Shown: positions 46,401-49,158, counted from the first letter of the stretch. The stretch: DNA of 64,000 nt from Escherichia coli (GCF_003018255.1 NZ_CP027440.1); one strand, 5' to 3'. Numbers: made by a program.

Positions 46401-49158
46401 CCAGGCGTTAAATCGCAGTTTGTTTGCCATCGGTATTGATAACACCCTGCCGGAAGAGTTCGCCCGCCTGTATCCACGCCTGGTGCGCACCACCCGCGCG
46501 GCGCTGGCCGGATTTGAAAGTGAATACGGCGTCCATCTTTCTGATGAGGAAAGCGGTCTGGTCGCGGTGATTTTTGGTGCCTGGCTAATGCAGGAAAACG
46601 ACCTGCATGAGAAACAGATTATTCTACTGACCGGGAATGATAGCGAGCGAGAAGCGCAGATTGAGCAGCAGCTACGCGAACTAACGTTACTGCCGCTCAA
46701 TATTAAACATATGTCGGTAAAGGCATTTTTGCAGACAGGCGCTCCGCGCAGCGCGGCACTGATTATTGCTCCTTATACCATGCCGTTACCGCTCTTTTCA
46801 CCACCGCTGATCTATACGGACCTGACGTTGACAACACATCAACAGGAGCAGATCCGCAAAATGCTCGAATCAGCATGAGGGAACAACTTTCGGGCGCAAA
46901 AACATTGCCGGAAGCGCCACCAGCGCCATCACCCAGAACACGCCGTGGCCCAGATATTGATACAGGAAACCGGCGAAAACGGTCATGATCGCAATACTGC
47001 CGCCCATCGCGACGGCAGAGTAAACCGCCTGTAAACGGATGACTTCGCTACCCTGGCGAGCGGCAATATAGCGCATGGCGGCCAGGTGGCAGACCGTGAA
47101 GGTGCCACAATGCAGAATTTGCACCACTATCAACCACGGCAACGCCGTAGTTGCTCCCATAATGCCCCAGCGCACTACGCCGCAAATCGCTGAGATCAAC
47201 AGCATATCGCGTGCACTACAACGGCGGAAAAGTTTATTACTCAGCGCAAAGATAATGACTTCCGCCACCACGCCCAGCGACCACAAATAGCCCACCGCCG
47301 AGGCCGAGTAGCCAGCAGCCTGCCAGTAAATGGCGCTAAAACCGTAATAGGCCGCATGCGCCCCCTGCAATAAACAAACGCAGGCCAGAAAGCGCCAGTT
47401 CTGGCGAACCAACGCCAACCACGCAGACCAACCGGTGCTCTCCTGCTGGCGGCTTGCCCCTTGTGGCTGAATCGTCGGACGGATGAGAAAGCCGAGCAGC
47501 ATGGATGCCACGCCCAACGTCAACAGCGCGAGGATCACCCGATAATCAAACATAGTGACCAGTTTGCCCGTCAGCGACGAGCCAATGACAAACGCCACCG
47601 AGCCCCACAATCGCACTTTGCCGTAATCAAGCGGGAACTGCTTTTGCCACGTATTCGCCAGTGCATCGGTCAACGGTACCAGCGGTGAGAAAAAGAGGTT
47701 AAAGCCAATCATCACCAGCATCAGCCACGCTACGTGCGCCCCCGCCCAGAAGGCGACAGCAAAGAGAAGTGTCAGCAGTGCCAGCACGCGCAAGGCGGAA
47801 ATCAGGCGAGAAGGATCGCTGACGCGGGGCGCGATGAGCAAGCTCCCGAGAAAACGGGCAACCAGACCTGCCCCCAATAACAGGCCGATGGTTTCTGGCG
47901 TTAAACCAATCCCCTTAAGCCAAACGCTCCAGAAAGGTAGAAAAATGCCGTAACTAAAAAAGTATGTGAAATAGCCGAGCGCCAACCAGCGCGTGGATTG
48001 CAAAACCATGAGTCCCTCCCGTCAGGAGGCGTTAGTCTGGGGTTAATCGAATGTTGGTGCAAGTTGAAAAATAAGAATATTCGAGCCTGCTTCCCGATGT
48101 CTGTAACGCCAGTTCACAAGCACTAAAAAACTGCGATCCGCGACGCGTTTTGCAAAAATAATGCGTAATTATGCCGTTACGCTTGCCAAACGTTCCTGCA
48201 CAATGGCGATGAAATCGCGTAATGCCGGCTTCATCTCCCCTTTCTTCCACGCCATCAGTAAAGCAATGGCAGGCACATTTCCGGCAATGGGTCGAAATAC
48301 CACCTGGCCGGTATTAAAATTATTCATATAACCGGGTATCAAAGTGACGCCCAGCCCCATCCCCACCAGATTCATGGTCACCAGAATATTCGTTGCCACC
48401 TGGACGATATTTGGCTGGCTGTTTTCTTGCGCAAACCACGCTTTAACGATCGGCGCAAGCGAACCGGAATACGCTGGATCAGTACTGACGAAATTCACGC
48501 CATCCAGTTGCGCGGCAGTGATCTCTTTTTCATGTGCTAAAGGGTGATCAACCGGTAACACCACCACTAATGGTTCGTCAAAAAGCTCCAGATAATCAAT
48601 CTCCGGGCTATAAACAGGATGGCGCATTAAGCCGACGTCGAGTTCACCACGGCGAATTTTTTCTTCCTGTTCCGTGGTGATTAAACTCACCAGCTCAATT
48701 AAGGTGTCTGGCTGTCTGAGACGAAACATCGGTAATACTTTTGGCAGTAAATTCACTTCCGCCGATGGCACAAAGCCAATGGTTAATTGTCTGTCTTCCT
48801 GAACAATTTTCCGCGCCCGTAATTTGGCATTTTCCGCTTGTTCGAGGATTGCCAGCGCGTCCTGGAGAAAACATTCTCCCGCCGCCGTCAACGCGACTTT
48901 GCGCTTATCCCTCACCAGCAACGGAACACCGACACAGTTTTCAAGATCGCGGATCTGGCTGCTTAACGAAGGCTGTGAGGTATGCAGTTTTTCCGCCGCA
49001 CGGGTAAAGTTCAGTGCCTGCGCCACTGCGACGAAATAGCGTAAATGCCGTAGTTCCATCACCTTCCCCTTGTTATCGAAAAAACGTCTCAGCTGGTAGA
49101 AATTAACTATTTCACATATCAGCAACCAACCAGCAACATCCTTATGGCACAAAAATAG

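What the first reader, a model, noticed from the sequence alone, without database searches (positions are those of the whole stretch)
46870..46878. Convergent 3'-end overlap of csiE and hcaT
The csiE stop (46876-46878) lies inside the last codons of the opposite-strand hcaT (stop 46870-46872). Convergent transcription through a shared 3' end allows transcriptional interference or antisense pairing between a stationary-phase gene and the phenylpropionate transporter.
Basis: seen in the sequence. Interest (0 to 1): 0.2.

Follow-up and report, generated by a model that had tools for sequence, protein, structure and literature searches.

The report
Ordinary csiE/hcaT tail-to-tail gene overlap
Two facing E. 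coli genes, csiE and hcaT, really do share their last 9 bases, but this is an already annotated, common and evolutionarily drifting kind of gene packing with no evidence that it regulates either gene.

Summary
csiE (+, 45598..46878) and hcaT (-, 48009..46870) overlap by 9 bp (TCAGCATGA). The codons are aligned, so each TGA stop lies opposite a serine TCA codon of the other gene. The window is E. coli, and the same overlap is in the K-12 MG1655 reference annotation. The 51-bp junction is identical in 5,182 of 5,423 complete genomes.

The tail-to-tail contact is old. In 35 Enterobacteriaceae loci the pair is convergent in 34, but the overlap length differs by clade (0, 4, 6, 9 or 14 bp). Three species carry inserted spacers, two of them readably REP-like. 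The shared bases encode non-conserved C-terminal tails.

I found no intrinsic terminator and no conserved RNA structure on either strand. Published Term-seq puts a csiE 3' end at window 46925, 47 nt past its stop, seen only at OD600 2.0. Full-length mRNAs would therefore be complementary over at least 56 nt. ExcludonFinder (2025) already lists csiE-hcaT among 165 convergent E. coli excludons.

No locus-specific regulation is shown. hcaT is a standard invariant qPCR reference gene, and the held parts of a p19 dsRNA dataset show nothing at the tail.

Verdict: already known and ordinary, so low interest. Side finding: the hca catabolic block was found next to hcaT only in E. coli and one unnamed Escherichia species, so the csiE/hcaT pair predates it.

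The parts
45598..46878 (+). csiE coding sequence (426 aa; stationary-phase-inducible protein with two PRD domains); stop TGA at 46876-46878
   Evidence: ORF (an in-frame ATG 7 codons upstream at 45577 is not the annotated start); RefSeq annotation; Pfam PRD E 1.4e-24
46870..48009 (-). hcaT coding sequence (379 aa; MFS transporter, putative 3-phenylpropionate transporter); its stop TGA is the complement of 46870-46872
   Evidence: ORF; annotation; Pfam MFS_1_like E 9e-54
46870..46878 (.). The 9-bp shared stretch TCAGCATGA. It encodes csiE Ser-Ala-stop and hcaT Ser-Cys-stop, with codons aligned, so each TGA lies opposite a TCA serine codon of the other gene
   Evidence: same in K-12; overlap length varies between clades
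46879..46925 (+). csiE 3' untranslated extension, antisense to hcaT codons, ending at the published Term-seq 3' end (MG1655 2666762 = window 46925). It has no canonical terminator hairpin or U-tract
   Evidence: LB OD600 2.0 sheet only; average reads 1664; coordinate conversion; folds no better than shuffles (z 0.30; z 0.42)
46897..46924 (-). Weak hairpin (5 pairs including one G-U, 8-nt loop) followed by AATGTTTTTG, lying inside hcaT 25 nt upstream of its stop. It is terminator-like by pattern only and is probably a chance match. Its + strand complement ends next to the csiE 3' end
   Evidence: pattern scan; fold z -0.50; no - strand 3' end reported there
46510..46670 (-). First C-rich, G-poor stretch (C/G 1.5-2.0) met by hcaT read-through RNA antisense to csiE. 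This is an inferred candidate Rho-loading region, and the hcaT 3' end is unmapped
   Evidence: Composition computed; inference only
48010..48168 (-). hcaR-hcaT intergenic region carrying hcaT's own promoter. I did not map the exact transcription start
   Evidence: Gene ends; PMC10249474 reports expression-raising SNVs upstream of hcaT, mostly in the -10 region; a terminator-like hairpin sits at the hcaR stop, 48182..48163

Best explanation
This is an ordinary, ancient, passively maintained tail-to-tail overlap of two independently transcribed genes. csiE and hcaT face each other with no intergenic spacer. Each gene is read until its first in-frame stop, and that stop lies a few bases inside the other gene. 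In E. coli the two TGA stops sit opposite TCA serine codons, which gives 9 shared bases. The shared bases encode dispensable C-terminal tails, so stop-codon turnover shifts the overlap length freely between lineages (0, 4, 6, 9 or 14 bp). With no room for a hairpin terminator, each transcript runs on into the antisense of its neighbour. There, untranslated RNA is most likely ended by Rho-dependent termination and/or 3' trimming (inferred). The csiE mRNA is shown to end 47 nt past its stop. The two mRNAs can therefore pair over at least 56 nt when both are made in one cell. That is a by-product of the packing, with at most a weak effect on expression.
For: Shown: the overlap and its phase. It is in the reference annotation. 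The junction is nearly invariant within E. coli. The pair is convergent in 34 of the 35 non-reference loci: 27 overlap by 4-14 bp, 2 have a 0 gap, 3 have spacers, and 1 has a broken hcaT. One further locus has no hcaT hit. Conserved protein sequence ends at CsiE '...IR(K/R)(M/I)LE' and HcaT '...LRP(K/R)V', and the tails beyond vary in length and sequence. The codon phase of the overlap differs between clades, which implies independent stop shifts. There is no intrinsic terminator signal beyond weak pattern matches. Folding energies on both strands are within the shuffle range. RNAalifold predicts zero conserved pairs over 17 genera/species. An intrinsic-terminator compilation has no entry for either gene. 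The Term-seq csiE 3' end is 47 nt downstream of the stop, with a low read count, and appears only at OD600 2.0. The RNA downstream of the csiE stop is C>G (1.35-1.39) and U-poor. Convergent overlaps are common in E. coli (58-75), and only about 20% of the genes involved have a predicted Rho-independent terminator. hcaT expression is unusually invariant.
Against: The zero-spacer arrangement persists across a whole bacterial family, which could also reflect selection. ExcludonFinder classes the pair as an excludon in at least 50% of 58 transcriptomes. Rho dependence is not demonstrated: the published Rho table covers LB OD 0.5 only and has no entry here. The hcaT 3' end is unmapped. The reference-gene study did not specifically test deep stationary phase with csiE fully induced.
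Confidence: 0.78

Rival explanations
1. The pair is a functional convergent excludon. When sigma-S/cAMP-CRP induces csiE in stationary phase, read-through into hcaT lowers hcaT expression (and vice versa). It would act through RNA polymerase collision and/or RNase III cleavage of the 56-nt-or-longer mRNA duplex, so the two genes are expressed in a mutually exclusive way.
For: The csiE 3' end lies inside hcaT, and only in the condition where csiE is induced. The pair is listed in the E. coli excludome. There is no terminator between the genes. The zero spacer is kept in most of the family.
Against: hcaT ranks among the most invariant transcripts across strains, growth stages and temperatures. 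hcaT level is set by its own promoter. The held p19 tables have no dsRNA at the tail, though these files were cut when stored. The csiE 3' end is weak (about 1,660 reads, against 85,000-260,000 for the strongest of the neighbouring entries). Natural relatives tolerate a 0 gap or 38-186-bp spacers. With overlapping CDSs, ExcludonFinder's coverage criterion is met almost automatically (my inference from its method).
Confidence: 0.14
2. Collision-assisted termination. With no hairpin terminator available, head-on encounters between the converging polymerases themselves help to end both transcripts near the shared end. The arrangement would then act as a terminator substitute rather than a regulator.
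For: No intrinsic terminator exists on either strand. The csiE 3' end is only 47 nt inside hcaT, with no structure to explain it. A preprint proposes that RNAP collisions drive bidirectional termination in E. coli (10.1101/2022.10.23.513370; I saw only the title and abstract).
Against: Both genes are weakly transcribed, so simultaneous convergent polymerases should be rare (inference from the low Term-seq count and hcaT's low, steady expression). The preprint's title concerns bidirectional terminators, and no terminator hairpin is present here. There are no data for this locus.
Confidence: 0.06
3. The overlap is an annotation or sequencing artefact, and one of the two reading frames really ends earlier.
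For: None found.
Against: Stop codons define both ends unambiguously. The junction is identical in 5,182 genomes. Independent annotations agree. Orthologues in other genera show the same tail-to-tail contact.
Confidence: 0.02

Closest known systems
Short convergent (tail-to-tail) overlapping gene pairs of prokaryotes
   Same: The genes lie on opposite strands with 3' ends facing. A few shared bases are created by the positions of the stop codons. The stop of one gene lies opposite a Ser or Leu codon of the other. It is one of 58-75 such pairs in E. coli.
   Different: Nothing essential differs. The codon-aligned phase and 9-bp length are specific to Escherichia and a few Citrobacter-group genera. 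Other clades have 4, 6 or 14 bp.
Convergent excludons (e.g. those catalogued by ExcludonFinder, PMC12288877)
   Same: The neighbouring opposite-strand genes have overlapping transcripts, and the pair is explicitly listed in the E. coli excludome. A mapped csiE 3' end lies inside hcaT.
   Different: The defining functional outcome, reciprocal or mutually exclusive expression with RNase III processing, is not shown here. hcaT is notably invariant, and no dsRNA is recorded at the tail. The overlap here includes coding sequence, not only UTRs.
Bidirectional intrinsic terminators between convergent genes
   Same: The position is the same: the junction of two converging transcription units.
   Different: There is no G+C-rich hairpin flanked by A- and U-tracts. 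Folding is not better than shuffles, and no structure is conserved.
REP/BIME elements in convergent intergenic regions
   Same: In Dryocola and Cedecea sulfonylureivorans the csiE/hcaT junction carries REP-like palindromes. In Buttiauxella sp. A111 it carries a 186-bp spacer with other palindromes.
   Different: The E. coli window has no REP at this junction, because the genes overlap instead.

Membership tests
Convergent overlapping gene pair | Two protein-coding genes on opposite strands with 3' ends facing each other | tested here: met
Convergent overlapping gene pair | The coding sequences share at least one base, stop codons included | tested here: met
   9 bp, 46870-46878
Convergent overlapping gene pair | Both reading frames are genuine genes (conserved proteins) | tested here: met
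   Pfam PRD and MFS domains; orthologues at 59-90% (CsiE) and 74-97% (HcaT) identity in 35 and 34 other loci respectively
Convergent excludon | Transcripts of the two neighbouring genes overlap | tested here: met
   Published data looked up here: Term-seq csiE 3' end at window 46925 and the ExcludonFinder Table 1 listing. The hcaT 3' end itself is unmapped
Convergent excludon | Expression of one gene lowers the other (reciprocal or mutually exclusive expression) | not testable with these tools
   I found no locus-specific experiment. Indirect evidence leans against it: hcaT is an invariant reference gene
Convergent excludon | dsRNA / RNase III processing in the overlap region | tested here: inconclusive
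   No p19 dsRNA cluster or small-RNA pair with coordinates at the tail in the held supplements, but several of those files were cut when stored. csiE dsRNA maps to its 5' half
Bidirectional intrinsic terminator | Stable G+C-rich hairpin with U-tracts on both strands at the junction | tested here: not met
   Only a 5-pair hairpin with a T-run on the - strand, and it lies inside hcaT. Fold z-scores range from +0.42 to -1.37. No conserved pairs. No entry in the TERMITe supplements
Rho-dependent terminator | C-rich, G-poor, unstructured untranslated RNA downstream of the stop | tested here: inconclusive
   The + strand has C/G 1.35-1.39 in the first 120 nt. The - strand is G-rich for about 160 nt, then reaches C/G 1.5-2.0. 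This is suggestive only
Rho-dependent terminator | Read-through on bicyclomycin treatment or Rho depletion | not testable with these tools
   The Rho table of PMC7815308 covers LB OD 0.5 only and has no csiE or hcaT entry

The most novel reading that the evidence does not exclude
The PRD-domain protein CsiE and the MFS transporter called HcaT may form an old functional module. Their spacer-free tail-to-tail contact has been kept across Enterobacteriaceae, and the pairing predates the arrival of the hca phenylpropionate genes in E. coli. On this reading the arrangement is selected because read-through couples their expression reciprocally, and HcaT's ancestral substrate is something other than 3-phenylpropionate.
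Probability: 0.08. Interest if true: 0.4.

Novelty: already known. Interest (0 to 1): 0.1.

Why it matters
It matters little in itself. The overlap is in the reference annotation, the read-through 3' end is in a published Term-seq table, and the pair is already in a published excludon catalogue. Three practical points follow. First, genetic manipulation of either gene's 3' end touches the other: the published Keio csiE primer removes the last hcaT transmembrane segment (PMC9431181). Second, hcaT, a widely used qPCR reference gene, has a neighbour that reads into it in stationary phase. Third, the name 'phenylpropionate transporter' rests partly on an adjacency that, among the loci sampled here, occurs only in E. 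coli and one unnamed Escherichia species.

Tried and rejected
- **Intrinsic or bidirectional terminator at the junction:** rejected. The pattern scan gave only weak matches, folds were no better than shuffles, no structure was conserved, and Rfam had no hit in the region.
- **The - strand hairpin plus T-run at 46924..46897 as a real hcaT terminator:** rejected. It lies inside the CDS before the stop, is very weak, and has no reported 3' end.
- **An hcaT 3' end in the literature:** none found in the Adams et al. tables or the TERMITe supplements. The supplements of ExcludonFinder, the Rend-seq annotation paper and Conway et al. 2014 were not held.
- **dsRNA at the tail in the p19 data:** none found.
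- **Skp/FkpA microarray paper:** it names both genes only in gene lists, with no usable direction of change.
- **Literature search for CsiE function / PRD:** returned nothing relevant.
- **Annotation artefact:** rejected, because stop codons are unambiguous.
- **Not attempted:** a genome-wide recount of convergent overlaps from annotation. I used published counts instead.

Full report

Yes. Reading 46700-47050 and listing ORFs shows two facing reading frames. The + strand ORF ends ...GAA TCA GCA TGA, with the stop at 46876-46878. The - strand ORF runs 48009..46870 and ends ...CCC TCA TGC TGA. Its stop is the complement of tca at 46870-46872.

The shared stretch is therefore 46870-46878, TCAGCATGA, 9 bp. 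The two frames are codon-aligned, so the TGA of each gene lies opposite a TCA serine codon of the other.

The window is Escherichia coli.
- A 1,151-bp query around the junction matches 5,424 of 5,426 complete genomes. It is 100% identical to strain JNE23-011.
- RefSeq annotates the two genes there as csiE and hcaT with the same 9-bp overlap.
- The K-12 MG1655 reference does the same: csiE 2665435..2666715 (+) and hcaT 2666707..2667846 (-).
- Both genes encode real proteins. CsiE has two PRD domains, and HcaT is an MFS_1_like transporter.

A convergent overlap depends only on stop codons, which are unambiguous. It therefore cannot be a start-site annotation artefact.

**2. Is it unusual?**

No. 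Published counts give 58 convergent CDS overlaps in E. coli (Lillo and Krakauer 2007, PMC2174442). With a different annotation the count is 75 (Huvet and Stumpf 2014, PMC4161906). The first paper also notes that only about 20% of the genes in such pairs have a predicted Rho-independent terminator.

**3. How old and how constrained is it?**

Within E. coli, the 51 bp centred on the junction are 100% identical in 5,182 of 5,423 genomes.

Outside E. coli proper, a scan of species-representative genomes with CsiE returned 36 loci from Escherichia, Salmonella, Citrobacter, Kosakonia, Leclercia, Enterobacter, Cedecea, Buttiauxella and other genera. I located both stops in each locus.
- An HcaT orthologue converges on csiE in 35 of the 36 loci.
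- The contact is almost always spacer-free, but the overlap length differs by clade:

| Overlap or gap | Taxa |
|---|---|
| 9 bp | Escherichia, C. amalonaticus/sedlakii, Pseudenterobacter, Intestinirhabdus |
| 6 bp | Salmonella enterica arizonae/diarizonae, three Citrobacter spp. |
| 4 bp | Kosakonia, Leclercia, Pseudescherichia, Silvania, Cedecea colo and others |
| 14 bp | Buttiauxella (8 loci) |
| 0 gap | Enterobacter soli; strain E69, a divergent species representative labelled E. coli, where an extra TAA precedes the TCA |
| 38, 89 and 186 bp spacers | Three species, with palindromic inserts (the first two read as REP-like) |

- The codon phase of the overlap also differs between these classes.
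- C-terminal alignments show that conservation stops at CsiE '...IR(K/R)(M/I)LE' and HcaT '...LRP(K/R)V'. The residues encoded by the shared bases are variable tails.

Together these results indicate an old loss, or original absence, of intergenic DNA. Neutral stop-codon turnover then followed. The overlap sequence itself does not appear to be under selection.

**4. What ends the transcripts?**

I found no dedicated element.
- A consensus scan finds only weak matches. One is a 5-pair hairpin plus T-run on the - strand at 46924..46897. It lies inside hcaT before its stop, so it cannot be its normal terminator.
- Folding of either strand around the junction is no more stable than dinucleotide shuffles. 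The z-scores were +0.30 and -1.37 and +0.42, -0.81, -0.50 and -0.55.
- RNAalifold on 17 taxa predicts no conserved pair.
- Rfam has no hit in the region.
- The supplements of an intrinsic-terminator compilation mention neither gene.

Published Term-seq (Adams et al. 2021, PMC7815308, Supplementary file 1) lists one 3' end here. It is at MG1655 2666762 (+), with average reads of 1,664. It is classed as primary for csiE and antisense to hcaT. The entry falls in the LB OD600 2.0 sheet only, which fits csiE's stationary-phase induction.

Converted to window coordinates, this end is at 46925. That is 47 nt beyond the csiE stop and 56 nt into the hcaT CDS. The RNA between the stop and this end is C>G (1.35-1.39) and U-poor.

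That composition is compatible with Rho-dependent termination or 3' trimming, but this is inference only. The paper's Rho table covers OD 0.5 only and has no entry for this locus.

No hcaT 3' end is reported anywhere I could search. On the - strand, the first C-rich stretch lies about 200-360 nt into antisense csiE.

**5. Does the overlap regulate anything?**

The idea is already in the literature at catalogue level. ExcludonFinder (NAR 2025, PMC12288877) lists csiE-hcaT among 165 convergent excludons found in at least half of 58 MG1655 transcriptomes. With overlapping CDSs, its coverage criterion is satisfied almost automatically. That is my inference from the method text.

I found no locus-specific test, and the indirect evidence leans against a strong effect.
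[quoted passage not shown] It is used as a qPCR reference gene (PMC3110127).
- hcaT has its own promoter, and SNVs in it (mostly in the -10 region) raise expression (PMC10249474).
- The p19 dsRNA-capture tables (PMC7373196) hold no cluster or small-RNA pair at the tail coordinates. These files were partly cut when stored.
- In the same dataset, csiE dsRNA clusters map to the 5' half of the gene and are associated with internal antisense transcription starts.
- The csiE 3' end is weak compared with the strongest neighbouring entries.
- Relatives tolerate a 0 gap or inserted spacers.

**6. Mechanism and likelihoods**

I commit to passive tail-to-tail packing. Termination happens inside the neighbour's antisense, most likely through Rho and/or trimming. 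Any RNA pairing or polymerase interference is an incidental, weak by-product. I put this at about 0.78.

The rivals are:
- a genuine excludon, about 0.14;
- collision-assisted termination, about 0.06;
- an artefact, about 0.02.

Shown steps: the overlap, its conservation pattern, the absence of a terminator, and the csiE 3' end. Inferred steps: Rho involvement, the extent of hcaT read-through, and the weakness of any regulatory effect.

**7. Comparison with known systems, and novelty**

It is a member of the class of short convergent overlapping gene pairs, and all defining features are met. It resembles an excludon in anatomy and is listed as one. However, the defining reciprocal expression and RNase III processing are untested or not seen. 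It is not a bidirectional intrinsic terminator.

The overlap, the read-through 3' end and the excludon label are all already public, so the novelty rating is 'already known' and interest is low (0.1).

**8. Side finding**

hcaR and hcaE lie next to hcaT only in E. coli and one unnamed Escherichia species representative labelled E. coli (L006).

In E. albertii, E. whittamii and the E69 species representative, the DNA beyond hcaT continues directly at window ~53405. That point is just after hcaD and leads into yphA. In about half of the other genera examined a match beyond hcaT was detected, and it falls in the yphA/yphB region.

The ~5.2-kb hcaR-hcaEFCBD block is therefore a lineage-specific addition next to an older csiE/hcaT pair. 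HcaT's assignment as a 3-phenylpropionate transporter began from adjacency and is only partly supported experimentally. An hcaT deletion still grows on 3-phenylpropionate.

Separately, the published Keio csiE deletion primer also truncates hcaT (PMC9431181).

Noticed in passing
window 48170-53405 (hcaR-hcaEFCBD), compared with L003, L004, L005 and other loci: The hca catabolic block sits next to hcaT only in E. coli and one unnamed Escherichia species representative (L006). In E. albertii, E. whittamii and the E69 species representative (labelled E. coli), and in the other genera where a match was detected, hcaT is followed by yphA/yphB-like DNA. So csiE/hcaT is the older unit, and the hca genes are a lineage-specific insertion (or were lost elsewhere).
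   Followed up: partly
window 45596-46259 (5' half of csiE); antisense TSSs at about 45716, 46094 and 46293 (-): Published p19 dsRNA capture (PMC7373196) reports dsRNA clusters and three internal antisense transcription starts inside the 5' half of csiE. This is unrelated to the hcaT tail overlap. I converted the coordinates from U00096.2.
   Followed up: partly
window 48169-48234 (-): K-12 annotates a 21-aa small protein, IroK (b4706), in frame within the 3' end of hcaR and sharing its stop codon.
   Followed up: no
window about 46870-47000 (3' end of hcaT): The LI-Detector paper (PMC9431181) reports that the published Keio csiE deletion primer is mislocated. It also deletes the 3' end of hcaT, including the last transmembrane segment, so some csiE-mutant phenotypes may be hcaT effects.
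   Followed up: no
L004:3619-3640 (strain E69, a divergent species representative labelled E. coli): An extra TAA codon directly before the TCA ends csiE two codons early. This turns the 9-bp overlap into an exact 0-bp abutment, a natural 'overlap removed' variant.
   Followed up: partly
L021:3737-3825, L023:3737-3774, L032:3737-3922: In Dryocola, Cedecea sulfonylureivorans and Buttiauxella sp. A111, the csiE/hcaT junction carries spacers of 89, 38 and 186 bp. L021 has a pair of 27-nt inverted REP-like arms. L023 reads as a single REP-like unit. L032 has other palindromes.
   Followed up: partly
window 48163-48182 (-): A terminator-like hairpin plus T-run straddles the hcaR stop codon. It is a plausible hcaR terminator upstream of the separate hcaT promoter.
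   Followed up: no
window 21087-21178 (-), 34001-34209 (+), 34341-34645 (+), 41878-41987 (-), 53992-54070 (-): Rfam gathering-score hits elsewhere in the window: sroE, IS128, ryfA, the iscR stability element (iscRS), and naRNA4 (REP-derived, between yphA and yphB).
   Followed up: no
H12, NZ_CP196708.1 (E. coli EC77), corresponding to window about 47201 onward: In this strain the match stops at query position 902, and the gene is annotated only as 'MFS transporter'. This suggests a disruption or rearrangement inside hcaT.
   Followed up: no
window 45577-45597 (+): The csiE ORF extends 7 codons upstream (MLMGDLQ) of the annotated ATG at 45598. RefSeq uses the shorter 426-aa form.
   Followed up: no
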